Positions 7,439-21,486 of a DNA stretch of 64,000 nt are shown here, in pieces. Position numbers and translations under genes: made by a program. Origin of the DNA: a virus (lineage: Duplodnaviria > Caudoviricetes); IMG/VR virus record IMGVR_UViG_3300021255_003058, positions 1-64,000 of that record, one strand, 5' to 3'. Position 1 is the first letter of the stretch. Each line of letters opens with the position of its first letter. The notes beneath the pieces were generated by a model. That model saw only the letters and a program-made list of their open reading frames with translations, did no database searches and had not been told where the DNA came from.

Positions 7439-7548
7439 AAACAAACCTGTAACATTCTTATAAAGAAATAAAAATGTAATCGTAATAAAATAAAAATCAA
7501 ACAAACAATAAAATATGAAGTATCTCTATAATACAACAAGGTTTGTTT
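7439..7548 (-). ncRNA. Bipartite intron-like element, permuted order, U-rich cargo
   Basis: AAACAAACCT-TGTTGTA-TTATAGAGA-TACTTC...TCTTTATAA-GAATGTTAC-AGGTTTGTTT. Confidence 0.7.
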
Positions 7549-7682
7549 TTTGCTGTTTTTAACATTCCTTGTGTATATTCACTTATTTAAGTTATAATAC
7601 AACAAGGTTTGTTTTTGTTGTTTTTAACATTCCTTGTGTATATTCACTTATTTAAGTTATAATACAACAAGGTTTGTTTTTG
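7527..7682. repeat. Tandem repeat, 65-66 bp unit, about 2.4 copies
   Basis: tataatacaacaaggtttgtttt at 7527, 7593 and 7658 with near-identical intervening sequence. Confidence 0.85.
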
Positions 7683-7806
7683 TTTGACGTACAGTTACCA
7701 AAATATGGGTTAAGATTACTTACTGTAATCACCATGCAGATATTGGATTACTTACCAATGTCCAGTACTTAACTTTATAATCTCATATTTGACACTTTGT
7801 TACGTG

Positions 7807-7879
7807 TGGAGCCACCGGGCTTCGAACCCGGGATCTCTGCGTGCAAGGCAGAAGTGTTAGCCAACTATACCATGACCCC
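7807..7879 (-). tRNA. tRNA-Ala(TGC)
   Basis: Cloverleaf, loop CTTGCAC. Confidence 0.9.
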
Positions 7880-7936
7880 AAATGGTAATTTTTTATATCA
7901 CTAAATTTATCAAGAGAACTACCAAACTCATTGATT

Positions 7937-8075
7937 ATATCAAGGAACGTTCGACAAAAGTTCATAGAGTTGGATTCGAACCAACGACCTCCAGTTTTCA
8001 AGGCTGGTGTTCTACCACTGAACTACCCTTTCAAATTATTGGGAAAGAAGTAACTCTTATCTACACCATTGACAT
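7937..8075 (-). tRNA. Circularly permuted tRNA (anticodon TGA) flanked by split intron-like element
   Basis: Order: element 3' half, (C)TTTCCCA, spacer, GAAAGGG..D..anticodon..T arm, element 5' half. Confidence 0.7.
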
Positions 8076-8078
8076 TTG

Positions 8079-8149
8079 TTGCGTAGGGAGAAGTCGAACC
8101 CCCAGCACAAGGTTATGAGCCTTATATGTTACCCTTACACCACCACGCG
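8079..8149 (-). tRNA. tRNA-Met(CAT), C1:A72 initiator-like
   Basis: Cloverleaf, loop CTCATAA. Confidence 0.85.
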
Positions 8150-8303
8150 ATATTTACTACTCTGTATATAAACAAAAAAATCAATTTTAAATAATTGGAC
8201 AGATTTTACTGTTACTGTCATCACCTACACCTACGATTAGGAAACTCGTTTGAATTATTTCAGGGACGGAATACATTACGTTGAGGCGCGACCTCTTTTG
8301 ATG

Positions 8304-8375
8304 AGGCGCTACTGAGAATCGAACTCAGATTATCGGGTTACAAAGCCGAGGTAATAACCATTATACTAAAGCGCC
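8304..8375 (-). tRNA. tRNA-Thr(TGT)
   Basis: Cloverleaf, loop TTTGTAA. Confidence 0.85.
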
Positions 8376-8385
8376 ATTTCTTTAA

Positions 8386-8468
8386 AATTTCATGTAACTA
8401 ACAAAGAAAGTATTATATAATATAAACCTTAACATATTGATGTAACTCTCTTTTACAACAATGAAATT
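8386..8468 (-). ncRNA. Bipartite intron-like element, permuted order, short cargo
   Basis: AATTTCAT-TGTTGTA-AAAGAGAGT-TACATC...ACTTTCTTT-GTTAGTTAC-ATGAAATT. Confidence 0.75.
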
Positions 8469-8470
8469 AG

Positions 8471-8554
8471 TTGCGGGGGTTGGAATCGAACCAACACAAG
8501 CATTTTCTGTCTCAAGGTTATGAGCCTTGCATCTTACCATTAGACTACCCCACG
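8471..8554 (-). tRNA. tRNA-Met(CAT), C1:A72, long variable region
   Basis: Cloverleaf, loop CTCATAA, 17-nt variable region. Confidence 0.8.
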
Positions 8555-8626
8555 ATTTTTTAAAAATTTATTCCTTTTGTTTAATAATAATTAAACCAAT
8601 TTAGTTTTTATCATTTAATTTATGTG

Positions 8627-8700
8627 TAGGGTGTGATGGACTTGAACCACCGACCTTGAAGGTATAAGCTTCCTGCGCTAACCTACTGCGCCAACACCCC
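8627..8700 (-). tRNA. tRNA-Ile(TAT)
   Basis: Cloverleaf, loop CTTATAC. Confidence 0.85.
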
Positions 8701-8759
8701 ATATTATAATCATTATAAATAAATATAGTTTTCTAAAAAAATCAATTCAAAAATATATG

Positions 8760-8924
8760 TTGCCACTGCAGGACTCGAACCTGCGACCCCGAGCTTATCA
8801 GGCTGAAGTAACTCTTATCTTCAACAATAATATCATTCATATGTTTACATATTATAATTAATAATATTACGTAACTATCGACAAAGTAAACGTTACGTGC
8901 TCTATCCAACTGAGCTAAATGGCA
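8760..8924 (-). tRNA. tRNA-Ile(GAT) with 91-nt intron (8805-8895) in anticodon stem
   Basis: Removing the insert restores the stem CG|AGC/GCTCG and a full cloverleaf. Confidence 0.85.
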
Positions 8925-8930
8925 ATTTTG

Positions 8931-9150
8931 TAGCGGCCATGGGAGTCGAACCCATTATTTGTAGGTGCTATATCCCTACCGTGATCGTTTCCTAAACAAG
9001 TAACTTAGTTCCTCACTTTATCCCGGGCTTGCTTAACATTTAACCTTGTTTATTTCTTGATGCTGTTAAATACTCATATCAAAATTATAAGTTTTAACAT
9101 AGTCCGTCGACCACATCAACTTAGAAACATTTCCGTTTCACTCGGACACT
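8931..9150 (-). tRNA. tRNA-like gene with about 145-nt D-loop insertion and 9-nt anticodon loop
   Basis: GTGA/TCAC D stem, GTAGG/CCTAC stem, canonical T arm. Confidence 0.5.
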
Positions 9151-9161
9151 GAAGTTAATTG

Positions 9162-9296
9162 CGGGGACGATTGGAGTCGAACCAATTTTTGATTATTTGA
9201 CAGATAATTGCATTGAAGTAACTCACACTCTACACTATCATTATATTAATGAAGAAAAACGAATGAAGTTTTATACTACCGTTTTGCTACATCCCC
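9162..9296 (-). tRNA. tRNA-Asp(GTC) with about 63-nt intron (9215-9277) in D loop
   Basis: Cloverleaf restored after removing insert ending GAGTTACTTC. Confidence 0.8.
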
Positions 9297-9303
9297 ATAA
9301 TTG

Positions 9304-9439
9304 CTGGAGGGGTTGGATTCGAACCAACACTCTTTTGTTTATCAGACAAATACATTAACCTTTGAAGTAACTCACATTCTACACTACCTTCTGGAGAACC
9401 ACAAACGAAGTTTTAAATCTTTTTTTATGTTACCCTCCA
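9304..9439 (-). tRNA. tRNA-Ile(GAT) with about 63-nt intron (9364-9426) in D loop
   Basis: Cloverleaf restored after removing insert ending GAGTTACTTC. Confidence 0.8.
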
Positions 9440-9445
9440 ATAATG

Positions 9446-9518
9446 CGCGCCCTGAAGGAGTCGAACCCTCATCTACTGGGTTTGGAGTCCAGTGCCTTAA
9501 CCATTAGACCAAAGACGC
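9446..9518 (-). tRNA. tRNA-Trp(CCA)
   Basis: Cloverleaf, loop CTCCAAA. Confidence 0.9.
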
Positions 9519-9546
9519 ATTATAGTTTATTTTATTCAAACAATTG

Positions 9547-9625
9547 TACAGCGGGTGGGACTCGAACCCACATACACCAATTACGTGGTTAATGTCAGTG
9601 TATAAGACTGCGACGATACCGCTGT
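9547..9625 (-). tRNA. D-armless tRNA-like gene, anticodon TAT, long variable region
   Basis: Perfect acceptor ACAGCGG/CCGCTGT and T arm; only about 8 nt where the D arm should be. Confidence 0.65.
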
Positions 9626-9629
9626 AAAT

Positions 9630-9822
9630 AATATTTTAACTCACCTAAGTATTTTGTGATATGGTCCACTCAACTTATCCTTTGGCCTCGGATCCTAAGT
9701 AATTGCAACTCCTTAGGGTACTGTACCACCTACACAAGATCATTTCTTACTTTCACCATAACATGTAGATGTAACTCTACTACTTATAAGTATATGTCTT
9801 GTTCCGATCTGGTTAAAATATT
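9630..9822 (-). ncRNA. Putative structured ncRNA
   Basis: Closed by AATATTTTAAC/GTTAAAATATT; internal hairpins. Confidence 0.4.
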
Positions 9823-9824
9823 TG

Positions 9825-9896
9825 TTGCGGAAGTGAGATTTGAACTCCACCACTAAGGTTATGAGCCTTGTATGCGACCAACACACTGCTTCCGCG
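9825..9896 (-). tRNA. tRNA-Met(CAT), C1:A72 initiator-like
   Basis: Cloverleaf, loop CTCATAA. Confidence 0.75.
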
Positions 9897-9902
9897 ATAT
9901 TG

Positions 9903-9976
9903 TGCCTCCATAGGGACTCGAACCCTAACCTCACAGATTAAGAGTCTGGTACGCTAACCATTAACGCCATGGAGGC
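9903..9976 (-). tRNA. tRNA-Lys(CTT)
   Basis: Cloverleaf, loop CTCTTAA. Confidence 0.9.
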
Positions 9977-9979
9977 AAA

Positions 9980-10591
9980 TTATGTATTTAAAAATTCTTT
10001 TATTTGATTAATCAAATTTTCTTTATCATTATTTGACATTTTTTTATATTCAGACCAACGTATTCTAATTCCTTCCCAACCTTTTGTTTTTAAATATTCT
10101 GTTCTTTCAATATCATGTTTAATCATATAATCTGAATAATGTTGTTCACCATCAATTTCTACATATTTCATTAAATTTTCATTATAAAAATCTAATTCAT
10201 ATCTATCAATTTGTTTATGATATTGTAATGGAATATTTTCTTTAACAAACAATTCTTCAAAATATTTTTCTGGATAACTTTGTTTAGAAGAATGATTAAT
10301 TATAAATCCAACTTTATTTGGATGCTCGTTTAAATATTTTTTTCTTGAATTTGATATTTTATTTTTTACTTCATCAGTATGATGTTTTCCTTTAAATGTT
10401 TCTCCGCATTTTTTTCTTGTTTCATCAGAAACAATAATTTCTCTACCTTCTTCTTTAGCTTTTGTAAATTGATTACTATTTTTTGAACGTAATAAATATA
10501 CTGGAGTTAATTTATTAGGATTTTTTGAACATCTCATTTCATGTTGAATTAAATGTTTACATTCCTTTCCACAATATTTACAATTAAACAT
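9980..10591 (-). CDS. Free-standing homing endonuclease-like protein (Zn finger, NUMOD3, DUF559/Vsr-like nuclease)
   Basis: CKYCGKEC, KGKHHTDEVKNKIS, YELDF..VEIDGEQH; start moved to MFNCKYC. Confidence 0.75.
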   Translation of the reverse strand: MFNCKYCGKECKHLIQHEMRCSKNPNKLTPVYLLRSKNSNQFTKAKEEGREIIVSDETRKKCGETFKGKHHTDEVKNKISNSRKKYLNEHPNKVGFIINHSSKQSYPEKYFEELFVKENIPLQYHKQIDRYELDFYNENLMKYVEIDGEQHYSDYMIKHDIERTEYLKTKGWEGIRIRWSEYKKMSNNDKENLINQIKEFLNT

Positions 10592-10609
10592 ATATTCAAA
10601 ATATTTTTG

Positions 10610-10680
10610 TGACCCCACTGGGAATCGGACCCAGGTCACGTGATTAAAAGTCACGGGCTTTACCACTAAGCTATGAGGTC
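10610..10680 (-). tRNA. tRNA-Lys(TTT)
   Basis: Cloverleaf, loop CTTTTAA. Confidence 0.9.
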
Positions 10681-10725
10681 ATAATCATATTTAAATATAG
10701 TTATTTTACCTTTATAATTTAATAG

Positions 10726-10861
10726 TGCCATCGTGGGAATCGAACCTATTCACATATTCAACTTCTATTCATATATATTGTCTCGAGCTATATACTTTCG
10801 ATTGGTTGAACCCGCCTGTACGGGGCGGCTACAGTTACCAATATACTGTGATAAACCGGCA
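10726..10861 (-). ncRNA. Expanded tRNA-like element (GTA loop, about 60-nt variable region)
   Basis: CAGT/ACTG D-like arm, CCGCC-CCGTACA-GGCGG arm, TTCAAC/GTTGAA long arm, GGTTCGATTCC T loop. Confidence 0.45.
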
Positions 10862-10874
10862 TTGTTAAGAATTG

Positions 10875-10968
10875 TGCCTGAGGTAGGATTCGAACCTACT
10901 TACTGCGAGCCCACTACGACAATTTGTTGATGCAGATCGGTTTTACAGACCGGTGCCGTTACTCAGGC
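10875..10968 (-). tRNA. D-armless tRNA-Tyr(GTA)-like gene with 37-nt variable region
   Basis: Perfect acceptor GCCTGAG/CTCAGGC, loop CTGTAAA, T arm; no D arm. Confidence 0.65.
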
Positions 10969-11135
10969 TTGGTATAGAATGCTTCTGAGTCATCTATACC
11001 ACAATAAAATACTGCTTCCTTCATAACTCTTAACTTTTAAATTTATTAATAAAACTCGGACTTACACTGTTTTAACCATTTCTAAACTAAGTAGTACTAC
11101 TTCTCCAAGGATTCGAACCTTGGTTCTGATGCCAG

Positions 11136-11220
11136 TGGGGTGGGAGGGATTCGAACCCCCTGCGTTTCATAGTAACGGATTTACAGTCCGCCGCCCTTCC
11201 ACCATCAGAGCAGCCACCCC
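11136..11220 (-). tRNA. tRNA-Tyr(GTA)
   Basis: Cloverleaf with long variable arm. Confidence 0.9.
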
Positions 11221-11486
11221 AAAAGGTGGAAATTAAAACCGGAATTTCCACGAACCGGCTAAACGTATTTAGCAGTGTTTCATGCGTGGTATAAGTTTAG
11301 ATTCAACCACTGATAAGCCACAACTTATCGCTGTCCGAATTTAAAAGGCTCGGATCTGTTCCTTGTTACTGTTGAGAATTATATCGTCTCAACAGCCCGT
11401 GTTAAATCTATTTTCAACAAACCGACTTAACCAAACTATCTCCATTTCTTCCCATATAATTTGTTATATAAACATATAACAAATAG

Positions 11487-11559
11487 CGGTCCGTACGGGA
11501 ATCGAACCCGTACCACACGGCGTGACAAGCCGGCATTGTTACCGTTCAACCAACGGACC
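11487..11559 (-). tRNA. tRNA-Asp(GTC)
   Basis: Cloverleaf, loop TTGTCAC. Confidence 0.9.
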
Positions 11560-11696
11560 AAATATGGTTGTCATCCAGATACCAAAAAACTGGGAGCAGA
11601 TTTCTCGATTATCCATTCCAACGTCATTGTCTTTACACTTGATACACCTGGACCAAGAGGAAAAATGATAACCCTTATAAGCATGGCATGCAAGAG

Positions 11697-11769
11697 TGGG
11701 GCGGCAGAGAATCGAACTCTGGTTGGTAGGATGTAAGCCTACTGTCCTGGACCACTAAACGACCTCCCC
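11697..11769 (-). tRNA. tRNA-Val(TAC)
   Basis: Cloverleaf, loop CTTACAT. Confidence 0.85.
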
Positions 11770-11936
11770 ATTAAAATTCATATAAATTCACCGAATGGAT
11801 TTGACATTTGTTTTCTTAAGACAAGTCAACATTTACACATTTATTATTCGGTTTATATCAGCCGAACAGCCGTGACAGCTTCCACTTAAATATGAATTTT
11901 TTATATATTGATGCAGTCACATCCAATTTTAATTTG

Positions 11937-12025
11937 TAGCTCCGATGGGAGTTGAACCCACACGCCCATTTGTCTGGACCTCAGTTTTTAAGACTGATGC
12001 GTACTACCAATTTCGCCACGGAGCC
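11937..12025 (-). tRNA. tRNA-Leu(TAA)
   Basis: Cloverleaf with long variable arm. Confidence 0.9.
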
Positions 12026-12051
12026 ATATTGAACAATATGAAACCGTTGTG

Positions 12052-12124
12052 TACCTCCGGTGGGACTCGAACCCACAATCCTCGGCTTAAGAGACCGCAG
12101 CTTTACCAACTCAGCTACAGAGGC
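12052..12124 (-). tRNA. tRNA-Lys(CTT)
   Basis: Cloverleaf. Confidence 0.9.
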
Positions 12125-12138
12125 ATAATTTATAATTG

Positions 12139-12213
12139 TGCTCCCATAGTGATTCGAACCCTGACATCATATGTTAAAAATCTGGTACGCTAACCAATTA
12201 ACGCCATGAGAGC
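12139..12213 (-). pseudogene. Degenerate tRNA-Lys(TTT)
   Basis: Anticodon stem unpaired (CCAGA/CATAT); resembles the Lys gene at 9903. Confidence 0.65.
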
Positions 12214-12219
12214 ATATTG

Positions 12220-12292
12220 TACCCCCTCAGGGACTCGAACCCTGGATCCTCGGCTTAAAAGGCCGCAGCTTTACCAGCTCAGCTAAGAGGGC
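12220..12292 (-). tRNA. tRNA-Lys(TTT)
   Basis: Cloverleaf. Confidence 0.9.
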
Positions 12293-12477
12293 ATACACAT
12301 AATAAATTTCTGAATTAATTATTAAATTCATTTGTTTTGATTTTGATTTTACGTGCATGCTTCTTTTGGTTAAAACATAATACCAATTTCTCTCAGGAAA
12401 CATACACAACTAACGTTTTCGTTTCATTGTTTTCATATGTTTTTAATTTATATTTATAAGTTATTATTTTCTATTTG

Positions 12478-12551
12478 CGGTGACGAGGGGATTCGAACCC
12501 CCACCACACGGATTGACAGTCCGGCATTGTAACCATTCAAACCACGCCACC
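12478..12551 (-). tRNA. tRNA-Asp(GTC)
   Basis: Cloverleaf. Confidence 0.9.
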
Positions 12552-12576
12552 AAAATATATCACTTAGTTTATTTGG

Positions 12577-12648
12577 CGGTCCATGAGGGAGTCGAACCCT
12601 CATCTTGTGATCGACAGTCACATATTCTAACCGTTATACCAATGGACC
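12577..12648 (-). tRNA. tRNA-Asp(GTC)
   Basis: Cloverleaf, encoded CCA. Confidence 0.9.
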
Positions 12649-12693
12649 AAATATCTGTCACCTAAGTGATCCAAATTATTATTTTCTTCATAG

Positions 12694-12779
12694 TAGCTCG
12701 AGCGGGACTCGAACCCGCACGCCCCTTTCGGAACACGACATTTTAAGTGTCGGAAGTCTACCAATTCCTCCATCGAGCC
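12694..12779 (-). tRNA. tRNA-Leu(TAA)
   Basis: Cloverleaf with long variable arm. Confidence 0.9.
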
Positions 12780-12861
12780 ACATTATGGATGAAATTAGCG
12801 TTTTCGGACCACGGGAAGCTCTTCATCCTTTCAGTTGTCAATTCAACACTCAAACCACTCG

Positions 12862-12935
12862 CGGGGACAGAGGGATTCGAACCCACAACCATCGGCTTAA
12901 CAGGCCGCCGCTCTGACCATTATAGCTATATCCCC
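12862..12935 (-). tRNA. tRNA-Asn(GTT)
   Basis: Cloverleaf. Confidence 0.9.
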
Positions 12936-13145
12936 AAGTATAAAAATCAATTCTATACAAGTTTCATTACGGACACTTATTAGAAACTTTATCCTTTGTC
13001 ATAATAACCTCCGAAGCTTTTTGACCTACCCAATGTTATTGTTATTTTATTACTCTCATATTGTCTAAGACCTCTTAATAGTTATTGCAAATGTTCTATT
13101 AAGTTTTCATAAATAATCAATAACCCATAACCTCAAATTGATTTG

Positions 13146-13266
13146 CTATTCAGTGGGATTCGAACCCAACTAACTTGACCGGTTTCCTCATTGCAATCAG
13201 GCCTAATCAAGTAGCCACTTACATCTTCCCTACTGGGACGTTTTATCCATTTAAACTATAAACAAA
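13146..13266 (-). ncRNA. tRNA-like element with stub anticodon hairpin and long insertion
   Basis: D arm GTTT/AAAC, TCCC-AGTA-GGGA, long CTACTTGATT/GGTCAAGTTAG arm, T arm. Confidence 0.5.
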
Positions 13267-13376
13267 TTACTACGGCAATTAGTAATGATTTGTGAGATTC
13301 ACCAGTCCTACTCGATTATTTTGCCGTTCATCTTTCAGTTCACCATTTTGTTACTGGATCTGTCCCGCCATGTTCG

Positions 13377-13448
13377 CGGGAGTAGAGGGAATCGAACCCA
13401 CACCGAGTGGTTAACAGCCACCTGCTACGACCTTCGAGCTATACTCCC
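13377..13448 (-). tRNA. tRNA-Asn(GTT)
   Basis: Cloverleaf. Confidence 0.9.
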
Positions 13449-13633
13449 AAATTTAGATGTTTAATTCTAAATTTTTTGTCAATTAATTTATATTTATCTT
13501 TATATGATTCAATTACACCTAAATTATATAAATCATCTCCAAAATAAATATCTAAATTATCTGTAAATTGTTCCCATTTACAAAAATCTTTTAATGTAGG
13601 ATAACCTTTAATTTCAATATACATCGAAGACAT
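13439..13633 (-). CDS. hypothetical small protein
   Basis: AT-rich coding-like ORF between tRNAs; TAG stop overlaps tRNA-Asn 5' end. Confidence 0.4.
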   Translation of the reverse strand: MSSMYIEIKGYPTLKDFCKWEQFTDNLDIYFGDDLYNLGVIESYKDKYKLIDKKFRIKHLNLGV

Positions 13634-13643
13634 TCATATTAAG

Positions 13644-13732
13644 TTCCTAATATTGGATTTACACCAATGACCTCTCTGTTACTACTCTAAAGGCAACGAT
13701 GAGCGCTCTTATAATATCTGAGCTAATTAGGA
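13644..13732 (-). ncRNA. tRNA-like element with extended anticodon arm
   Basis: Acceptor TCCTAAT/ATTAGGA, D arm GCTC/GAGC, T loop TGTAAAT. Confidence 0.55.
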
Positions 13733-14086
13733 TTCTTAATGATATGGAAATTCTGTTAATGGTAACTGACCAGATTTGCAATAATTGCTTATGGTTACTG
13801 ACCATATTATATTTACTGAACTATTTCGCTGAGGTGCTTGGCATCTCATTGAAAGGGGTTTTCCACCACTCCTCTTCCGTATCAGTTTTTATATTTTGTT
13901 GTACCAATATGTCAATGATCGCTTCGTTCATTGAAACTCTCAGTTTCAATAATGAAATGATTATGTCAAAGAACTCAATTTCAAAAACTAAATATAATTA
14001 GTTTTCAAATATTATATTAATAATATAGAACTTATTTTCAAAATTTCAAATTTCTAAGAAAAATTTTCAAATATTTTCTACATTTG

Positions 14087-14212
14087 TGATTATGGTTGGA
14101 TTCGAACCAACGTAGCTCAGGGTAACTTACTTCCTCAGTTTAACTTTATCAAGAAACCTTCTAACGTTTTCAGCAGTGACCTGATAGCACATCCAATCTG
14201 CTTCACATAATC
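14087..14212 (-). tRNA. tRNA-like gene with about 60-nt anticodon-loop region
   Basis: Acceptor GATTATG/CATAATC, TCAGG/CCTGA stem, canonical T arm. Confidence 0.55.
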
Positions 14213-14228
14213 AAAGATCTATTTTTTG

Positions 14229-14296
14229 TTTCTACATCCGGATTCGAACCGAAGACCCCTTCTTCCAAGTGCTCTTCCTAACTGAGCTATGTAGAA
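14229..14296 (-). tRNA. tRNA-like gene with truncated anticodon arm
   Basis: Good acceptor, D and T arms; anticodon arm only CTT-GGAAG-AAG. Confidence 0.6.
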
Positions 14297-14391
14297 AATC
14301 AGCTTTCATAAAAACTACCATACTCCATTATATACATACGGCCGATATTATATAACTTCATTACTCTCATTAATAATCCCACTTAAAAATG

Positions 14392-14462
14392 TTGGACCTA
14401 CGGGACTCGAACCCATAACATGAGGACCAAAATCTCACGTGTTACCATTACACCAAGGTCCA
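14392..14462 (-). tRNA. tRNA-Gln(TTG)
   Basis: Cloverleaf. Confidence 0.9.
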
Positions 14463-14853
14463 ATTTATAAAAAATCCAGTACTATTCTTCTATAATGTTC
14501 ATTTAAGTGCGAATCCTTGCTTTACATGTGGTGGGTCACTTTACCCTGATTTTCAAATTCCCATGGAAATTATCAATCCCTCATATATAGTACCTTTGTA
14601 CTTTTACAAATTGTCGTTACATAATAATATCCTATTACACGAGTACCTTTAACCTACTGACAACTTGTGGATTTTATTTTCTCTTGAGTTCATATTTTCA
14701 AAGAACGAAATAAACAATTTCAAATATTAAATGTTCATATGAAAAATTCATATTATATTAGTATTCAAATATTATTTATTTTTATTATAATTATAATATA
14801 GTATCTTTAGATTTAATTTCAAATTATTTAAGAATTTTTTAGAAAATATTTTC

Positions 14854-14949
14854 AAAAAATAAGTGGTTAAGTTTTTCACCTAACCACTTGCAGCTATATC
14901 GTTTATAATTATATTCTTATTATCCTTCCATATCATTCTGCAAGTGGTC
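14854..14949 (-). promoter_or_regulatory. Attenuator 2: terminator with competing antiterminator
   Basis: Terminator AAGTGGTTAGG-TGAAAAA-CTTAACCACTT-ATTTTTT; GACCACTTGCAG in the leader ORF pairs with CTGCAAGTGGTT. Confidence 0.75.
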
Positions 14950-15030
14950 ATTCATTAACGCATAATCATTATTCCAAGCATTATCTAATGTTTGGTCTAA
15001 TATTTGTTTATATGTATTGACTAATTGCAT
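14920..15030 (-). CDS. Leader peptide 2 MQLVNTYKQILDQTLDNAWNNDYALMNDHLQNDMEG
   Basis: 36-codon ORF overlapping the antiterminator; composition matches downstream tRNAs. Confidence 0.7.
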   Translation of the reverse strand: MQLVNTYKQILDQTLDNAWNNDYALMNDHLQNDMEG

Positions 15031-15213
15031 TTGTGATATTTTCTTTAATTTAATTTGTATATACTTACATCTATTGATGTAATTTAATTAATAATAAAAA
15101 TTTAATTCTTAATTGTTATATAAAAATAGACTATATAAATAAAAAATTTCATAAAAATGAATGATTATGAAAATATTTTTCAAAAATCATCCAAATATAG
15201 TGTCAATTGCGAG

Positions 15214-15295
15214 TACCTCCCCTGGGATTCGAACCCAGACCCAATTAAGGACCGCTTTTGAGACGGTTGCGTAGACCCAATTCCGCCAGAGAGGC
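15214..15295 (-). tRNA. tRNA-Leu(CAA)
   Basis: Cloverleaf with variable arm. Confidence 0.9.
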
Positions 15296-15426
15296 ATAAT
15301 TATAAAAAGTTAGAATCATATACAGTAAGGGCTTCGTTCATTGGCTTCTCATTTCATGTATTTCTACAATCTCATCTATTCCTTCCCTTAATCATAACTT
15401 TATATAACAAATGTTGATACAATAAA

Positions 15427-15675
15427 TTAGTTTATCTTATACAATTCTTCATTATCAATTGCACGTCTTATCCATCTCATCAATATTAATGCTTTATCGT
15501 AATGAGACATAAATGTAGCTGTTTCTCCAACATCATGTTTATCAGACAAATCTATATCAAGTGAATAAATTGTACCATCTTCTACTGTTATATGATAAAC
15601 AGCTATTCCTCCAGATTTTACACAATCAAGTTCAGCAGAACCTTTAACAATAGTTTTTAAATCATGAATAATCAT
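15427..15675 (-). CDS. hypothetical protein
   Basis: 82-aa coding-like ORF. Confidence 0.7.
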   Translation of the reverse strand: MIIHDLKTIVKGSAELDCVKSGGIAVYHITVEDGTIYSLDIDLSDKHDVGETATFMSHYDKALILMRWIRRAIDNEELYKIN

Positions 15676-15699
15676 TTATACTAATATTTATTTTTATTG

Positions 15700-15779
15700 T
15701 GCGGCTGGTGGGATTCGAACCCACACCCAATTAAGGACGGCTTCTTAAACCGCTGCGTCGACCGTTGCGCCACAGCCGC
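15700..15779 (-). tRNA. tRNA-Leu(AAG)
   Basis: Cloverleaf, loop TTAAGAA. Confidence 0.85.
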
Positions 15780-15920
15780 ATTTAGTATTTTCTGCATAGG
15801 AGAACCTTGGATTTAATGAGTAACGATAACCACTCATCCTATGGTTATTGAAAATACTTTTACTATTGTTTTATTTTAACCGATAAAACTAAATAGCTTA
15901 AATTGTCGATATCGTTTTTG

Positions 15921-15994
15921 TACCCCGAGAAGGATTCGAACCCTCATCATGACATCCGTAGTGTCGTATTCTAAATCCATTGAACTACCGGGGC
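15921..15994 (-). tRNA. tRNA-Arg(ACG)
   Basis: Cloverleaf, loop CTACGGA. Confidence 0.9.
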
Positions 15995-16003
15995 ATTTAT
16001 TTG

Positions 16004-16079
16004 TTGAACTGGACAGATTCGAATTGTCGACCTTCTGTGTGTAAAACAAATACTACTGACCTAATTGAATTACAACCCA
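16004..16079 (-). tRNA. tRNA-Val(TAC), degenerate
   Basis: Cloverleaf with mismatches, loop TTTACAC. Confidence 0.6.
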
Positions 16080-16088
16080 ATATATATG

Positions 16089-16162
16089 CTGGGGTACCGG
16101 GACTCGAACCCAGAACTTCTGCTTCAGAGACAAATGTGTTAACCAATTACACGCATACCCTA
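16089..16162 (-). tRNA. tRNA-Gln(CTG)
   Basis: Cloverleaf, loop CTCTGAA. Confidence 0.8.
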
Positions 16163-16264
16163 ATTTAATAAATTAGACACATTCTGTTATTTAGTTAACC
16201 GAGCAGATATTTTGATTCTTTCAGGTTTCAATCATCTAAGAAACAAATGCAGGCATCTAATTTG

Positions 16265-16351
16265 TACCCTGGGGGAGACTTGAACTCCCACGCTACTATT
16301 ACTTCGCACTTGCTTCTAAGGCAAGGATGTCTACCATTCCAACACCAGGGT
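16265..16351 (-). tRNA. tRNA-Leu(TAG)
   Basis: Cloverleaf with long variable arm. Confidence 0.9.
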
Positions 16352-16566
16352 AAATAGTGTCCATGTTCCATTAACGCAGGTCTTAGACACCTAACCGCAC
16401 GAATAACCATCACAACAATTGGTTACGTTATCAATCAACCAAATTACCTTTCTATAAGATTTTATGACATCCAGTTTGGAGGCAACGGCCATCTTGCTCT
16501 AATGCTGCGTACGCCTGGCACCGATTTTACATCTTAGTAAATAAGATAACTTATAGATCATAATTG

Positions 16567-16635
16567 CCACCGAAGATGGAATCAAACCATCGTCTCTTGG
16601 CAAAATCCAAGGCTCTATCATTGAGCTAATCGGTG
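16567..16635 (-). tRNA. tRNA-like gene with 6-nt anticodon loop
   Basis: CTTGG-ATTTTG-CCAAG; D and T arms present. Confidence 0.55.
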
Positions 16636-16865
16636 AAGTGACCTTTCGAGTTTCAACGGGGCTCCTCGTCCCCTATAGGATGTGACACATATCCGAAGAT
16701 ACAAAATGCAACAACTCTAACTAACGCTTCTACAGATTCCTTAGGTCAACAAGGAATGGAACAAACGATTTCCCCTAAGTGACAGAGACATTAGACTGTT
16801 TCGATTCATAGGCCTGTGCACCAACCTATGAATACCCGTAATTGTATATAGTATTATCTTTAAAA

Positions 16866-18002
16866 TTATTTCAATTGGTCTTCAATTTCCTTAATCATTT
16901 TATTTACCTTTTCAAGATATTCTTTTGCATCACGTATTGATTCATCAGATGAAGATCTATCGAAACTTCCCCAGTTTTCAGGATTTTCTTTACCTCTTTC
17001 TTTTGCGCGTTGAACTGATTTTTCTGCTGAATGTTTATAATTCATTGATTTATAGAATTGTTCATATGCATAAGAAACATATCTCATTAAATCTGATAAA
17101 TCAAAACGCATATCCATATTTTCAGGTTTTGACATTACCTTTTGGAATAAAGCAACAACATCATCATTTGTTTTCTTTATTTCATCAAACAAAACATTTG
17201 GATCATCTTGAAGTTTCTTTGCTTTGATTTCTTTTACCATTACTTTATATCTTGCTTGTTGTTGTCTAAGAAGATTATCCATGCTATCTTTGTCCATTTC
17301 TATTGAACCTTTTTGAGATTCTTCGCGTTCTTTATGTAATTGATCATAATCTTTAATCATTGATTCTGTTATTTCAAGAACATAAACATCAAAATCTTTA
17401 ATTAATTCTAATGTTTCATTAACTTTTAAAGGACGAACATCATATTTATATTTCTTTGCAGTTTTCTCTTGGACTCCTTGTTTCCAACCTTCTGACTCAA
17501 AATAATATACTCTAACATCTCCTAAAGTTTTTGCATATCCTTTAATAAATGCAACAATATCTTTAGTACCTGGAGTACAAACAATCATATCAGCAATAGT
17601 TTTCTTTGCATAAACTGATTTTAAGAACTTTACAAATTCTTTATCGTCACCTTTATATTGTTTGAAATCACTATCTTTAATTTCTGACCATTTCAAACCA
17701 CGAATACCACTTTTCTTGTCACCCCATCTTGGAGTTTCTGTTAATGGACCAAAAATAGATGCAAAAGTTTTTGCTGTCTTTGTTGGCTTATAACCGCGAC
17801 CTCCTTCTTTGTATCTTTGCTCTTGTTTCTTGTCGTTTTCAGCATGTTCCTTTTCAGCATCTTTAATTGCTTTTGCAAGATTTGTTAATAATGATGATTG
17901 AAAACTCTCATTAATTGTTTCATCAATAATTAAATTACATGTTTCAATTAATATTTCATTATTACATAAACCGTCTGATACGAATTCAAATAAATTTTTC
18001 AT
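16866..18002 (-). CDS. hypothetical protein
   Basis: 378-aa ORF. Confidence 0.8.
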   Translation of the reverse strand: MKNLFEFVSDGLCNNEILIETCNLIIDETINESFQSSLLTNLAKAIKDAEKEHAENDKKQEQRYKEGGRGYKPTKTAKTFASIFGPLTETPRWGDKKSGIRGLKWSEIKDSDFKQYKGDDKEFVKFLKSVYAKKTIADMIVCTPGTKDIVAFIKGYAKTLGDVRVYYFESEGWKQGVQEKTAKKYKYDVRPLKVNETLELIKDFDVYVLEITESMIKDYDQLHKEREESQKGSIEMDKDSMDNLLRQQQARYKVMVKEIKAKKLQDDPNVLFDEIKKTNDDVVALFQKVMSKPENMDMRFDLSDLMRYVSYAYEQFYKSMNYKHSAEKSVQRAKERGKENPENWGSFDRSSSDESIRDAKEYLEKVNKMIKEIEDQLK

Positions 18003-18038
18003 TATATTATATATATTTTTTTATATATAAAAATAAAA

Positions 18039-18359
18039 TTATAATTTCATTTGTTTCTGATATTTTCTATCTCTCTTATCAATTTCTGATAATGGAGAAA
18101 CACCAGCATCAAGCAATTCAATTTTCTCAAATCCATTTGCTTCAGTTATAAGAGAATCTTTTTCAGATATGCATCCTTCATATCGTTCTCCATAAGATCC
18201 AGTCATCTTTTTTGTTGCAGGATCTAAATCTCCCCAATCTGCAGAATGTGTATTACCAATAGGTTCTACAAAATATTTCTTTCCTGTTATTTTAGACTTT
18301 ACAATAAAACGACCAGTTTTATCGCTTTCTTGTAAAAATCTCTTTTCATCAATTTTCAT
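18039..18359 (-). CDS. hypothetical protein
   Basis: Start moved to MKIDEK to avoid tRNA overlap. Confidence 0.75.
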   Translation of the reverse strand: MKIDEKRFLQESDKTGRFIVKSKITGKKYFVEPIGNTHSADWGDLDPATKKMTGSYGERYEGCISEKDSLITEANGFEKIELLDAGVSPLSEIDKRDRKYQKQMKL

Positions 18360-18379
18360 TTTCTCTCTATATATTATTG

Positions 18380-18470
18380 CGGAGAGGGTGGGGCTCGAAC
18401 CCACGCACCGGGTATTAGCCGACCTAAGACGTTAGCAGTGTCTCCCCTTCACCAACTTGGGTACCTCTCC
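18380..18470 (-). tRNA. tRNA-Ser(GCT)
   Basis: Cloverleaf with long variable arm. Confidence 0.9.
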
Positions 18471-18536
18471 AAATTGGTTGATCAATTGGCTCAACCATAG
18501 GCCTTAATAGATGAAATGGTTACAACTTACTTACTT

Positions 18537-18621
18537 AATTCCGCGCGAGATTCGAACTCATATTTCTTCAATGAACGTTCGCAAAGTGTTTTCTCCTTTA
18601 TTAAATTTAAACTACAAGAAT
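18537..18621 (-). pseudogene. Degenerate tRNA-like gene
   Basis: T arm and D stem present; enlarged D and anticodon loops. Confidence 0.4.
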
Positions 18622-18640
18622 CTTTCAGTCATTTCATTTG

Positions 18641-18714
18641 GGTGACTTGTGGGTAACGATCCCACTACCTGTTGAGCCACAATCAACCGCTCTACCATTT
18701 GAGCTAAAGCCACC
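18641..18714 (-). tRNA. tRNA-His(GTG)
   Basis: G-1/C73, loop TTGTGGC, atypical T loop. Confidence 0.8.
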
Positions 18715-18848
18715 ATATAAATTAGTTTTTCTCATTAAGAGCTTTTGCATTATAAAACTATAAACTTTCCCGAATCTGTACGTTTCGGTAACTGATGTTC
18801 TTATGGTAATCAATTAACAGTACGTTAAAGCGCGCAACTTTGTTTATG

Positions 18849-18923
18849 GGTATCGTGTCAGATTCGAACTGACATCTCAGTGATTCACAGTCACCGTCTT
18901 TCACCAGTTAAGTTAACGACACC
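18849..18923 (-). tRNA. tRNA-His(GTG)
   Basis: G-1/C73, loop CTGTGAA. Confidence 0.85.
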
Positions 18924-19158
18924 ATATTAATGACAGGTCAACCATTCTCCCTGTCTTGTCCCGATATGTTTTTCACTATAATCAAGGCTTATAGCTGCTC
19001 AAGCAAAGAGGGCGGGATTTCAACATTATATTGTAAATTAAAATTCACAATTTTTATAACCTCATGAAGATGGCCCTACACGGATTAAAAAGGCTGCAGA
19101 GAATCCTCTATTGGAGCAGGGTGGACATGCTGCGTACCTCACAGCTCCCTGCATATTG

Positions 19159-19230
19159 AGCAGTGTACCGGATTTGAACCGGCTCCTTAAGAATGGCGAT
19201 CTCATATGCAACCATTAACACCTACACTGC
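19159..19230 (-). tRNA. tRNA-Gly(GCC)
   Basis: Cloverleaf, U73. Confidence 0.85.
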
Positions 19231-19231
19231 A

Positions 19232-20143
19232 TTATTTTTCATATAATACTTCCCAAAATTTATTTCCATATTTATTAATAACATATTCAAATACTTCAGT
19301 TAAATCTTCTTTAAATAAAACTTTAATATCTGGATTTTGCTCAGATTTTATTTGAGCAACTTTATCATAATATCCTTTTATTTCAATTATTTCATTATCA
19401 TTAATAATAAAATCTGGAAAATATTTACAAACTTTTTTATTTAATTTATAATATCTTATTTCATCGCACCTTTTAATTTTTATATTATGTTCTAAACAAT
19501 ATACCAAATAAGCTAATTCCCATGAACTATCACAATGAATACCTTTATAGTTTCCATGATGATGATTTTTAATAGAATTTGGATGATAACCACCAAAATT
19601 ATTTTTCTTTGCGTTATCGCTTAACTTAGTATGTTTACCAATTTTTAAGCATTCATTTGAACAATATTTTAATTTCTTATTATAATATTTTTTACCACAA
19701 ATAGGACATATATTATAAGGCGTCCAATCTGGATTTACTGTCCATCGATTATTAATATTTAAATTATTAATTCTTTTCTTACCCTTTATCCATGATGATT
19801 TACCCTTTAAAGAATCAGCTATTTTCTTATTCTTTTCTTCTAAATTTGTATGTAATGATGATAACTTATGAGCACATGAAGAACAACACGTTTTTCTATA
19901 ATCACCTGCATTAAATTGTTTTTGTCTTATTTGTAATGTATATTCTTTACCACAAGCTAAACATATTAATTTATACTCTTTTAGAGGATTATTTTTTTCA
20001 AATTTTTCTTTTTTTCGTAAAGAAAAATCTTTTTGATATGAATTAGGATTTTTACTACAATGTATAATATGAGCCCCTAATGATTGACCAGAGTTAAATT
20101 CTTTATTACAAAATTTACAAATATGTTTTTTATTATCTTCCAT
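19232..20143 (-). CDS. Free-standing homing endonuclease-like protein (Zn fingers, PD-(D/E)XK nuclease)
   Basis: CxxC motifs; DSSWELAY..YFPDF..IEIKG. Confidence 0.75.
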   Translation of the reverse strand: MEDNKKHICKFCNKEFNSGQSLGAHIIHCSKNPNSYQKDFSLRKKEKFEKNNPLKEYKLICLACGKEYTLQIRQKQFNAGDYRKTCCSSCAHKLSSLHTNLEEKNKKIADSLKGKSSWIKGKKRINNLNINNRWTVNPDWTPYNICPICGKKYYNKKLKYCSNECLKIGKHTKLSDNAKKNNFGGYHPNSIKNHHHGNYKGIHCDSSWELAYLVYCLEHNIKIKRCDEIRYYKLNKKVCKYFPDFIINDNEIIEIKGYYDKVAQIKSEQNPDIKVLFKEDLTEVFEYVINKYGNKFWEVLYEK

Positions 20144-20224
20144 ATATTAATATAGTTTTATATAATTAATAATAAATATAGCAGAAGAAAAAAGTCAAAC
20201 TATAATTGTTAAAAAATGTTAAAG

Positions 20225-20297
20225 AGCGACTGATGGGAGTCGAACCCACATCACTGGATTGGAAGTCGAGTATAATAAACCGTTATACGACAGTCGC
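20225..20297 (-). tRNA. tRNA-Gly(TCC)
   Basis: Cloverleaf, U73. Confidence 0.85.
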
Positions 20298-20417
20298 AAA
20301 TTCGGTTTTCCTTAGATCCGAAAACTTAGTACCGTGTCTCGCCTCTGTACCCTCGCCTTAGCATACTTCCATTATATTATATAGTACGTAATTCAAATAT
20401 AATGTCTAAGGATTTTG

Positions 20418-20551
20418 TAGGGGAGGTTGGACTCGAACCAACATAATCTTTAACCAAAATAAAGTGTGTAAACCTGAAGTAACTCTAATCTACAGCATTC
20501 ATTAAGAAGCAACAGCGAATAAAGTCAATAAATTAATTTCACCACTCCCCT
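20418..20551 (-). tRNA. tRNA-Gln(TTG) with about 61-nt intron (20476-20536) in D loop
   Basis: Cloverleaf restored after removing insert ending GAGTTACTTC. Confidence 0.8.
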
Positions 20552-20553
20552 AG

Positions 20554-20627
20554 TAGCCCCCACGGGATTCGAACCCGTTATTCCGGCTTGAGAGACCGAC
20601 GACTTAAACCAATCTGTCCCGAGGGCC
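20554..20627 (-). tRNA. tRNA-Glu(CTC)
   Basis: Cloverleaf. Confidence 0.85.
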
Positions 20628-20634
20628 ATCAAAT

Positions 20635-20777
20635 AATTCCTGTAACATGCTTGAAAAGTGTTTTTATGGACTCGAACCATCACCTCGGGCTTTGCAGGCC
20701 CGCGCTCTAACCACTTAAGCTAAAAATCCAAAGTTTCTGGTGGATTAAGAAGTAACTCTTCAATTCAACAAGGAATT
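20635..20777 (-). tRNA. Circularly permuted tRNA-Cys(GCA) flanked by split intron-like element
   Basis: Acceptor 3' strand with CCA (TTAATCC-A-CCA, 20738-20748) lies upstream of the body GGATTTT..T arm (20666-20729). Confidence 0.8.
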
Positions 20778-20881
20778 TGGGTGGAGGTATCTTATCACTA
20801 TCAGATATCCGATTGTTTTTCTTTGCAAGATATAATTATAAGTACTGTTTAACTAGTCCTGCGCAAGTGAACCTCCATGTG

Positions 20882-20953
20882 TACCGATAGGCTGAGTTGA
20901 ACAGCCATCTAAGCCTTATGAGAGCCCCGTAATTACCGTTATACGATATCGGC
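20882..20953 (-). tRNA. tRNA-Met/Ile2(CAT)
   Basis: Cloverleaf, loop CTCATAA. Confidence 0.85.
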
Positions 20954-21320: not shown

Positions 21321-21324
21321 ATAT

Positions 21325-21403: not shown

Positions 21404-21406
21404 TTG

Positions 21407-21480: not shown

Positions 21481-21486
21481 ATATAA

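What the first reader, a model, noticed from the sequence alone, without database searches (positions are those of the whole stretch)
8760..8924. tRNA-Ile(GAT) split inside the anticodon stem by a 91-nt element
This is the cleanest junction. Exon 1 ends GAGCA-CG and exon 2 starts AGC-CTGATAA-GCTCG. Excising 8805-8895 restores a perfect CGAGC/GCTCG stem and places the 3' splice site just after UACUUC. Position 28/29 is not a canonical bacterial intron site.
Basis: seen in the sequence. Interest (0 to 1): 0.85.

Follow-up and report, generated by a model that had tools for sequence, protein, structure and literature searches.

The report
tRNA carrying a Ro60-type Y-RNA arm
A phage tRNA-Ile gene really is interrupted in its anticodon stem by a 91-base insert. 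The insert is one copy of a widespread structured RNA module that travels with phage and bacterial Ro60 (TROVE) protein genes, so the gene is more likely a tRNA-shaped Y RNA than a tRNA waiting to be spliced.

Summary
On the minus strand, 8924-8896 and 8804-8760 join into a perfect 74-nt cloverleaf (anticodon GAU), split between positions 28 and 29 by 8895-8805.

The insert is one of 12 copies in the window of a covarying two-half RNA module: outer stem with a bulged U, a UGWA/GYUKGUU internal loop, a 9-bp helix, then UACUUC. It matches no Rfam family at threshold.

It is not a group I or bulge-helix-bulge intron, and its junctions lie at variable distances from the conserved core.

The module tracks Ro60/TROVE genes:
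- A TROVE gene is present in 9 of 9 near-complete virus genomes that carry the module.
- Where a TROVE ORF lies in the same locus, it is a median 354 nt away and on the same strand in 63 of 63 module copies.
- TROVE homologues occur in only 79 of 50,697 phage records.
- Open-ended copies hit Rfam YrlA below threshold.

Best reading (about 0.58): an unspliced tRNA-bodied Y RNA, a circular permutation of YrlA. A true RtcB-sealed intron remains possible (about 0.25). No RNA data were available.

The parts
8896..8924 (-). 5' part of the tRNA body: acceptor 5' strand, D arm, A26, C27, G28
   Evidence: Sequence read; junction test; orthologues.
8888..8895 (-). 5' linker of the insert (UAACGUUU), not conserved in the family
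   Evidence: Linker lengths vary between 2 and 18 nt across family members.
8880..8887 (-). Half A, inner helix P2 3' strand (ACUUUGUC). It is 1 nt shorter than in the orthologues (ACUUUUGUC), which leaves one bulged A in P2.
   Evidence: Alignment A1; pair counts.
8873..8879 (-). Half A internal-loop strand GAUAGUU (family consensus G-Y-U-K-G-U-U)
   Evidence: Consensus from 332 elements found by a permissive parser, a minority of them false positives.
8824..8872 (-). Outer stem P1 closed by an AU-rich hairpin. It includes the covarying 2-bp element AC/GU and the bulged U at 8826.
   Evidence: The five P1 pairs counted all show changes on both sides. The bulged U is T in 88% of elements.
8820..8823 (-). 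Half B internal-loop strand UGAA (consensus UGWA). With its flanks it reads GUUGAAG, resembling the Ro-binding motif GNCGAAN0-1G.
   Evidence: Consensus; motif as described in PMC4201824. The resemblance is an inference.
8811..8819 (-). Half B, inner helix P2 5' strand GAUAAGAGU
   Evidence: Motif-anchored covariation test: 70 of 74 cells paired, against a shuffle mean of 35; pair counts.
8805..8810 (-). Conserved single-stranded UACUUC (each base 90-98% in the family, in a sample picked by this motif). It contains the YUAY-like UUAC.
   Evidence: YUAY is described for YrlA in PMC4201824.
8760..8804 (-). 3' part of the tRNA body: A29-C31, anticodon loop CUGAUAA (anticodon GAU at 8799-8797), G39-G43, variable loop, T arm, acceptor 3' strand, A73
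9211..9279 (-). Second hairpin-insert copy of the module, in the D loop of a tRNA-Asp(GUC) body
   Evidence: Model R1 scores 54.2 bits (this copy was in the training alignment). Reading of the exons.
9360..9421 (-). Third hairpin-insert copy, in the D loop of a second tRNA-Ile(GAU) body
   Evidence: Model R1 scores 48.6 bits.
20472..20535 (-). Fourth hairpin-insert copy, in the D loop of a tRNA-Gln(UUG) body
   Evidence: Model R1 scores 71.9 bits.
7441..25396 (-). Span holding the eight open-ended copies (half B, then an insert, then half A). They lie at 7441-7545, 7936-8075, 8386-8467, 20634-20777, 21323-21404, 22202-22280, 24065-24203 and 25230-25396. Some enclose whole or rearranged tRNAs; others enclose only 24-50 nt.
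   Evidence: Parser output. The tRNA model hits 20657-20729 and 24100-24170, inside two of these copies.

Best explanation
The gene encodes a tRNA-shaped Y RNA, not a conventional intron-bearing tRNA.

The 91-nt insert is a hairpin version of a conserved RNA module: P1 with a bulged U, an asymmetric UGWA/GYUKGUU internal loop, a 9-bp P2, then single-stranded UACUUC. This module is the likely docking site for a phage Ro60 (TROVE) protein.

In classical YrlA Y RNAs the Ro-binding stem is made by the RNA's two ends, and the tRNA-like domain has a closed acceptor stem. Here the same parts are circularly permuted. The stem is closed by a loop and projects from anticodon-stem position 28/29, and the acceptor ends are free.

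Inferred steps:
- The RNA is cut out of the tRNA array by RNase P and RNase Z like its neighbours.
- It keeps the arm.
- It binds the phage Ro60 protein, probably as part of an RNA surveillance or repair set that includes RtcB in related phages.

Shown here: the structure and its covariation, the family, and its linkage to TROVE genes.

Inferred, not shown: binding to Ro60, retention of the arm, and the biological role.
For: Structure:
- In 30 hairpin-insert copies, 95.9% of cells are paired against 76.9% in shuffles (0 of 500 shuffles reach the observed value). The covariation score is 0.527 against 0.182, and at most 0.10 when the partners are slid.
- With motif-only anchoring, 70 of 74 and 72 of 74 cells are paired, against shuffle means of 35 and 53. 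Many are G-U pairs, so the structure exists in RNA of the tRNA strand.

Linkage to Ro60:
- Pfam TROVE is found in 9 of 9 module-carrying virus records that are at least 90% complete, and in 11 of 15 records overall. The four without it are fragments.
- A TROVE-like ORF lies in the same locus (at most 15 kb) for 38 of 67 viral and 25 of 46 bacterial loci holding a two-half module. For loci holding only a chance match to the motif the figure is 3 of 73.
- The median distance from module to ORF is 354 nt, and all 63 of 63 are on the same strand.
- TROVE homologues occur in only 79 of 50,697 phage records.
- In PhiCrAss001-type phages, four module RNAs (two plain hairpins, two tRNA-bodied) fill the unannotated 880-nt gap right after the TROVE gene.

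Likeness to YrlA:
- Open-ended copies hit Rfam YrlA at 38-45 bits, E 1e-5 to 1e-7.
- YrlA is defined by lying within 4 kb of rsr on the same strand, a GNCGAAN0-1G motif on the 5' strand, a YUAY motif and a tRNA-like domain (PMC4201824). The module has RKUGWAG and UUAC in the corresponding places.

Against splicing:
- Junction distances to the core vary: (8,6), (7,6), (10,9), (14,14), and a total of 7 in one case.
- No EndA gene was found in 5 related genomes.
- No Rfam ribozyme or intron family matches.
- The anticodon differs between orthologues: GAU here, UUU in six relatives.
- Intact isoacceptor copies of every module-bearing tRNA exist in the same array.
Against: - No TROVE gene lies in the 116-kb contig that holds this window. 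The contig is only 44% complete, so the partner is inferred from relatives.
- In huge-phage relatives the modules sit in tRNA arrays far from the TROVE gene. In G001, TROVE is at 130 kb and the modules at 329-345 kb.
- Unlike YrlA, this RNA keeps a canonical anticodon stem and a 7-nt loop with U33 and a purine at 37. The two body parts rejoin into a flawless tRNA, which a pure mimic would not obviously need.
- RF02553 scores only 22 bits here, against a gathering score of 69.
- RtcB, and in one case Tpt1, occur in related phages. That also fits splicing.
- No RNA or binding data exist.
Confidence: 0.58

Rival explanations
1. A genuine, protein-dependent tRNA intron. An unidentified endonuclease cuts both linkers at the edge of the tRNA body, possibly recruited through the module or through Ro60. 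RtcB then joins the halves into a working tRNA-Ile(GAU). The open-ended copies would be processed by the same cut-and-join route.
For: - The parts rejoin into a perfect cloverleaf, with compensatory changes in stems that span the insert.
- The anticodon loops are canonical.
- RtcB is present in four related huge phages, with Tpt1 next to it in one.
- Hairpin inserts occur at several tRNA positions: 28/29 and the D loop.
- The two halves also flank rearranged tRNA pieces.
Against: - No nuclease candidate was found.
- No EndA gene and no bulge-helix-bulge could be drawn at the junctions (own reading).
- Junction positions are not fixed relative to the conserved core, and no nucleotide at the junctions is conserved.
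- Complete PhiCrAss001-type genomes carry the module but no RtcB.
- RtcB is a known neighbour of rsr and Y RNA genes without any splicing (PMC4201824).
- Copies with a 24-27 nt insert cannot be exons.
Confidence: 0.25
2. A small self-cleaving or self-splicing ribozyme of a new class that removes itself from the tRNA, with or without RtcB to seal the break.
For: Unpaired nucleotides are highly conserved (UACUUC, UGWA, GYUKGUU) next to covarying helices. The module occurs between tRNAs and in 5' leaders, as some ribozymes do.
Against: - No match to any Rfam ribozyme, even at E up to 10.
- One cleavage site could not free both ends.
- The junctions move relative to the core, and in some members lie inside UACUUC.
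- The last intron base is not G and there is no group I or group II signature.
- The TROVE linkage explains the conservation better.
Confidence: 0.04
3. A tRNA gene inactivated by insertion of a selfish mobile element, that is, a pseudogene on its way to decay.
For: The window copy has a 1-nt deletion in P2 compared with its orthologues. The array is full of homing-endonuclease-like ORFs. Intact tRNA-Ile(GAU) genes exist at 21247-21320 and 21714-21787.
Against: - Seven orthologues in different phages keep both body parts intact.
- Double compensatory changes are seen in the T stem (GCAGG/CCTGC against GTGGG/CCCAC) and in the anticodon stem of L034.
- The module itself covaries.
- No target-site duplication is present.
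Confidence: 0.05

Closest known systems
YrlA-type bacterial and phage Y RNAs bound by Ro60/Rsr (Rfam RF02553; Chen et al. 2014, PMC4201824)
   Same: - A long two-strand stem with an asymmetric internal loop.
- A purine-rich 5'-strand motif: GNCGAAN0-1G in YrlA, RKUGWAG here.
- A YUAY motif just past the stem (UUAC here).
- The stem is joined to a tRNA-like body.
- Family members lie next to a TROVE gene and on the same strand.
- Open-ended members give significant sub-threshold RF02553 hits.
   Different: - The stem is closed by a loop and the acceptor ends are free, which is a circular permutation of YrlA.
- A complete anticodon arm is kept.
- The sequence motifs differ, and RF02553 stays below its gathering score.
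- This copy sits in a tRNA array with no TROVE gene on the contig held.
Mycobacterium smegmatis YrlA, cut by RNase P in its acceptor loop and given CCA (PMC4201824)
   Same: After that cut, the RNA has a free tRNA-like acceptor end plus a Ro-binding stem. This is the same overall shape as the RNA predicted here. It also explains the window's open-ended copies that carry CCA-like ends.
   Different: The M. smegmatis RNA is in two pieces held together by the stem. Here it would be one chain.
Archaeal and eukaryal tRNA introns with a bulge-helix-bulge motif, cut by EndA and sealed by RtcB
   Same: The insert is small, lies at a non-canonical tRNA position, and would need proteins to be removed. 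RtcB is present in relatives.
   Different: No bulge-helix-bulge can be drawn. No EndA gene was found in five related genomes. The core of the insert is conserved in sequence, which BHB introns are not.
Group I introns in bacterial and phage tRNA genes
   Same: They also interrupt a tRNA gene in a bacterial virus.
   Different: The insert is 91 nt, too small for a group I core. It has no terminal G and no Rfam match. It sits in the stem (28/29), not in the anticodon loop.
'Enigmatic' tRNA introns of Lak megaphages (Devoto et al., bioRxiv 10.1101/356790)
   Same: These are also unexplained inserts in the tRNA genes of very large gut phages that carry suppressor tRNAs.
   Different: Those were described in the anticodon region, and one was said to resemble a tRNA. 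No sequences were available to me, so membership could not be tested.

Membership tests
YrlA / bacterial Y RNA | Encoded within about 4 kb of a Ro60/TROVE gene, on the same strand | tested here: inconclusive
   Met for the family: median distance 354 nt, 63 of 63 on the same strand, and TROVE in 9 of 9 near-complete genomes. Not met for this copy: no TROVE gene in the 116-kb, 44%-complete contig.
YrlA / bacterial Y RNA | Stem carrying the Ro-binding motif GNCGAAN0-1G on its 5' strand | tested here: inconclusive
   The consensus here is R-K-U-G-W-A-G (GUUGAAG in this copy). U stands where C is expected, though 14% of copies have C. The resemblance alone does not show binding.
YrlA / bacterial Y RNA | tRNA-like domain with T arm, D arm and acceptor-like stem | tested here: met
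   A full cloverleaf is obtained once the arm is set aside.
YrlA / bacterial Y RNA | Score at or above the Rfam RF02553 gathering threshold (69 bits) | tested here: not met
   22.2 bits at 8865-8983. Open-ended relatives reach 38-45 bits. The model expects the unpermuted order of parts.
YrlA / bacterial Y RNA | Physical binding to Ro60/Rsr | not testable with these tools
   Needs RIP, CLIP or EMSA.
BHB tRNA intron (EndA plus RtcB) | Two 3-nt bulges separated by a 4-bp helix at the splice sites | tested here: not met
   The exon-intron pairing that a BHB requires is absent in the registers I tried for two family members. For this copy the central helix AGCA/UACU would have 3 of 4 pairs; for L004 it would have none (own reading).
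BHB tRNA intron (EndA plus RtcB) | A splicing endonuclease gene (PF01974) | tested here: not met
   0 of 5 related virus genomes, two of them at least 98% complete. The control search rings in four archaea.
BHB tRNA intron (EndA plus RtcB) | An RtcB-type ligase is available | tested here: inconclusive
   Present in G001, G002, G005 and G007. Absent from G000 and from the complete PhiCrAss001-type genomes G003 and G004, whose Bacteroides hosts can supply one.
Group I intron | Conserved P1-P9 core, terminal G, and an Rfam match | tested here: not met
   The insert is 91 nt and ends in C. No Intron_gpI match even at E up to 10.
Known self-cleaving ribozymes (hammerhead, twister, pistol, hatchet, hairpin, HDV) | Match to the family covariance model | tested here: not met
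   No match at E up to 10 in the window, or up to 1 in six other loci holding the module.

The most novel reading that the evidence does not exclude
The module is the signal of a bacterial and phage tRNA cut-and-rejoin system. Ro60 bound to the module would hold the precursor while the linkers are removed, and RtcB would seal the tRNA body. The hairpin-insert copies (introns), the rearranged copies and the bracketing copies would then all mature into working tRNAs. That would give bacterial RtcB and Ro60 a natural splicing substrate.
Probability: 0.2. Interest if true: 0.9.

Novelty: new variant of a known kind. Interest (0 to 1): 0.62.

Why it matters
- Y RNAs and Ro60 are poorly understood in bacteria and barely studied in phages. 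This module family is missing from Rfam, and I found it in no paper.
- It is present in the cultured model gut phage PhiCrAss001 lineage, where the TROVE gene is an early gene and the RNAs beside it are unannotated. It also occurs in huge rumen and gut phages and in Acidobacteriota chromosomes.
- It shows that a Ro60-type docking stem can be grafted onto complete tRNA bodies in three topologies. tRNA finders miss this, and it can be mistaken for tRNA introns or permuted tRNA genes.
- It gives a directly testable system for what phage Ro60 proteins do during infection, for example tRNA surveillance or repair against host anticodon nucleases.
- If the minority reading is right, it would be the first protein-dependent tRNA splicing system in bacteria.

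Tried and rejected
- **Promoter or processing-site reading of the conserved GTTACTTC.** Rejected: a partner half covaries with it, with G-U pairs.
- **IS200/IS605-type insertion (TTAC target).** Rejected: the 5' flanks vary and there are no terminal hairpins of that type.
- **Bulge-helix-bulge intron.** No such fold, and no EndA.
- **Group I, group II and known ribozymes.** No Rfam match. Hammerhead, hairpin and K-turn consensus patterns compared by eye did not fit.
- **Internal guide sequence.** The variable loop bases of half A change between orthologues that have identical exons, so they do not guide exon choice.
- **Fixed-distance cutting from the core.** Rejected by the variable linker lengths.
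- **Cas12a repeat likeness of UGUUGUAGAU.** The UGAAGA variants break that stem, so I judged it coincidence.
- **Intron-less orthologues.** None were found in two scans of the viral collection. Only tRNA-Arg(TCT) genes share the junction string, and all six orthologues carry an insert.
- **Literature.** Seven searches found no description of the module, of permuted tRNA genes in bacteria or phages, or of Y RNAs in crAss-like phages.
- **ARAGORN-based splice-site mapping.** Too permissive at default thresholds, so I redid it with graded stringency.
- **Motif in bacterial genomes.** The raw count (118) is what chance predicts. Only hits that also have the partner half were used.

Full report
**Setting.** The window is an AT-rich phage contig. 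The record held is 116 kb and estimated 44% complete. A tRNA array runs from 6.5 to 26 kb on the minus strand, with 51 ARAGORN calls and 54 Rfam tRNA hits. Homing-endonuclease-like ORFs (DUF559, NUMOD3) lie among the tRNAs.

On the minus strand, 8924-8896 and 8804-8760 are the two parts of a tRNA body. They are separated by 91 nt (8895-8805) between positions 28 and 29. Joining them gives a 74-nt cloverleaf with a CGAGC/GCTCG anticodon stem and the loop CUGAUAA. Of 441 junction combinations tried, this one is one of only two that survive ARAGORN at 120% stringency. The same contiguous D-arm and anticodon-stem string occurs uninterrupted in tRNA-Arg(TCT) genes of other phages.

Six orthologues in other phage contigs have an insert at the same junction. 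Their body parts are almost identical to the window's, but their anticodon is UUU where the window has GAU. The window's T stem differs by a double compensatory change (GCAGG/CCTGC against GTGGG/CCCAC), and L034 has a compensated anticodon stem. So the body is under structural selection and is not a decaying pseudogene.

**The insert belongs to a family.**
- Its last 8 bases (GTTACTTC) occur 9 times on the tRNA strand of the array, against 1.1 expected for the whole window on both strands.
- A 19-base degenerate pattern recovered 74 loci from the viral collection.
- Reading those loci showed a second conserved half (ACUYUnnUC, then G-Y-U-K-G-U-U) and two topologies. In one, half A, a hairpin and half B sit inside a tRNA (the hairpin-insert form). 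In the other, half B comes first and half A follows an insert of 11 to more than 200 nt (the open-ended form).

**The fold.** An outer stem P1 has a bulged U two pairs from its end. Next comes an internal loop, UGWA on the B side and GYUKGUU on the A side. Then a 9-bp helix P2 (GAnnAGAGU with ACUYUnnUC). Then single-stranded UACUUC on the B side and a variable linker on the A side.

Covariation is strong:
- When both halves were located by sequence motif only, the free nn positions paired in 70 of 74 cells, against a shuffle mean of 35 and a maximum of 49.
- The 2-bp element paired in 72 of 74 cells, against a shuffle mean of 53. Many are G-U pairs.
- On a 30-sequence alignment, 95.9% of cells pair against 76.9% in shuffles (0 of 500 shuffles reach this). 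The covariation score is 0.527 against 0.182, and at most 0.10 when partners are slid.

The window holds 12 copies: four hairpin inserts and eight open-ended. The copy under study is intact, except that P2 lacks one base compared with its orthologues.

**It does not behave like a known intron.**
- Rfam gives nothing at threshold, and nothing relevant at E up to 10.
- The last base is C. The size rules out group I and II.
- No bulge-helix-bulge can be drawn, and no EndA gene is present in five related genomes.
- The distance from the conserved core to the tRNA junctions is not fixed. The linker pairs are (8,6), (7,6), (10,9) and (14,14), and in some members the junction lies inside UACUUC.
- No base at the junctions is conserved.
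- The variable loop bases do not track the exons.

I found no rule by which a nuclease or ribozyme anchored on the core would find the junctions.

**The turn in the reading.** I tested that idea on this family.
- Pfam TROVE is present in all 9 module-carrying virus records that are at least 90% complete, and in 11 of 15 overall. The four without it are fragments, including this contig.
- Using phage TROVE ORFs as queries, a TROVE-like ORF of 430-560 residues lies inside the same locus for 38 of 67 viral and 25 of 46 bacterial loci that hold a two-half module. For bacterial loci holding only a chance match to the motif, the figure is 3 of 73.
- The median distance from module to ORF is 354 nt, and all 63 of 63 are on the same strand.
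- TROVE homologues occur in only 79 of 50,697 phage records.

In the PhiCrAss001 lineage (Kehishuvirus, host Bacteroides intestinalis), an 880-nt unannotated gap follows the TROVE gene. It holds two plain-hairpin and two tRNA-bodied module RNAs. That TROVE gene is reported as an early gene and "a possible ribonucleoprotein component" (PMC8375218). I found no mention of partner RNAs.

**Comparison with YrlA.** Bacterial Y RNAs of the YrlA type lie within 4 kb of rsr on the same strand. They carry a Ro-binding stem with GNCGAAN0-1G on the 5' strand, a YUAY motif, and a tRNA-like domain. The M. smegmatis RNA is even cut by RNase P and receives CCA (PMC4201824).

Open-ended copies of the module in Acidobacteriota and Acetivibrio genomes hit RF02553 over its full length at 38-45 bits, E 1e-5 to 1e-7, below the gathering score of 69. 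The module has RKUGWAG and UUAC where YrlA has its two motifs, and the same layout of stem, asymmetric loop and stem. I therefore read the module as a divergent Ro60-binding stem.

The hairpin-insert form studied here is a circular permutation of YrlA. The stem is closed by a loop, the acceptor end is open, and a full anticodon arm is kept. The motif equivalence is an inference, and binding is untested.

**What still favours splicing.**
- The body rejoins perfectly and the anticodon loop is canonical.
- The hairpin inserts sit at several positions (28/29 and the D loop).
- RtcB is encoded by four related huge phages, with Tpt1 beside it in one.

Against this:
- RtcB is a known companion of rsr and Y RNA genes.
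- Complete PhiCrAss001-type genomes have the module but no RtcB.
- The anticodon is not conserved between orthologues.
- Every module-bearing tRNA in the window has intact isoacceptor copies.
- Some open-ended copies simply enclose a complete tRNA, or only 24-27 nt.

I put the unspliced Y-RNA reading at about 0.58, a true protein-dependent intron at about 0.25, and a ribozyme or a dead gene at about 0.05 or less each.

**Limits.** The Ro60 partner of this particular phage is inferred from relatives. The consensus figures come from sequences picked by the motif itself, so the conservation of half B is overstated.

Noticed in passing
window 8797-8799 (minus strand); L001, L015, L034, L047, L056, L067: The same tRNA body carries anticodon GAU here but UUU in six orthologues (loop CUGAUAA against CUUUUAA). 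Either the anticodon switched, or the loop is free of decoding constraint.
   Followed up: partly
L205:3920-4799 (Bacteroides phage PhiCrAssBcn4, OQ221539.1); also L202 and L203: In PhiCrAss001-type phages the unannotated 880-nt gap after the TROVE gene holds four module RNAs. Two are plain hairpins and two are tRNA-bodied. Some of the tRNA-bodied ones have a 9-nt 'anticodon' loop. ARAGORN calls no tRNA there.
   Followed up: partly
L075:876-2742 (G001): In a related huge phage that is 98% complete, an RNA 2'-phosphotransferase (Tpt1/KptA) gene directly precedes and overlaps the start of RtcB. This pairs two tRNA-splicing or repair enzymes.
   Followed up: no
L206, about 7590-7720 on the minus strand: Another phage tRNA-Lys(UUU) body is split at the same 28/29 position by a different 46-nt insert that lacks this module. 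A neighbouring gene shares its CAGCAAnUUUACU motif. Position 28/29 is therefore a recurrent insertion point.
   Followed up: no
L084, L097, L137, L149, L153, L159, L187, L192, L193, L201 (Acidobacteriota, Terriglobia): The two module halves enclose conserved non-tRNA inserts of 100-130 nt beside TROVE genes, often in tandem arrays with tRNA-like units. What these inserts are is unknown.
   Followed up: no
window 24065-24203 and 20634-20777: Two open-ended copies enclose sequences that the Rfam tRNA model scores as complete tRNAs: Gly(UCC) at 51 bits and Cys(GCA) at 47 bits. The module pairs their leader with their trailer. The Cys unit also has an upstream TTAATCC-A-CCA that could serve as an alternative acceptor strand.
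   Followed up: partly
L005:653, L007:3499, L037:604: Short-loop copies of the module lie about 20-40 nt upstream of the TROVE start codon itself. They could be a leader through which the protein controls its own mRNA, or a Y RNA made from the same transcript.
   Followed up: no
window 6556-6627; 9980-10666; 22429-23370; 24203-25063: A suppressor-type tRNA (anticodon CUA) heads the array. DUF559/NUMOD3 homing-endonuclease-like ORFs lie between the tRNAs.
   Followed up: no
window 8759-8835: ARAGORN reports a 77-nt tRNA-Ile(gat) here by borrowing insert sequence as a false 5' half. Automated annotation would hide the split.
   Followed up: yes
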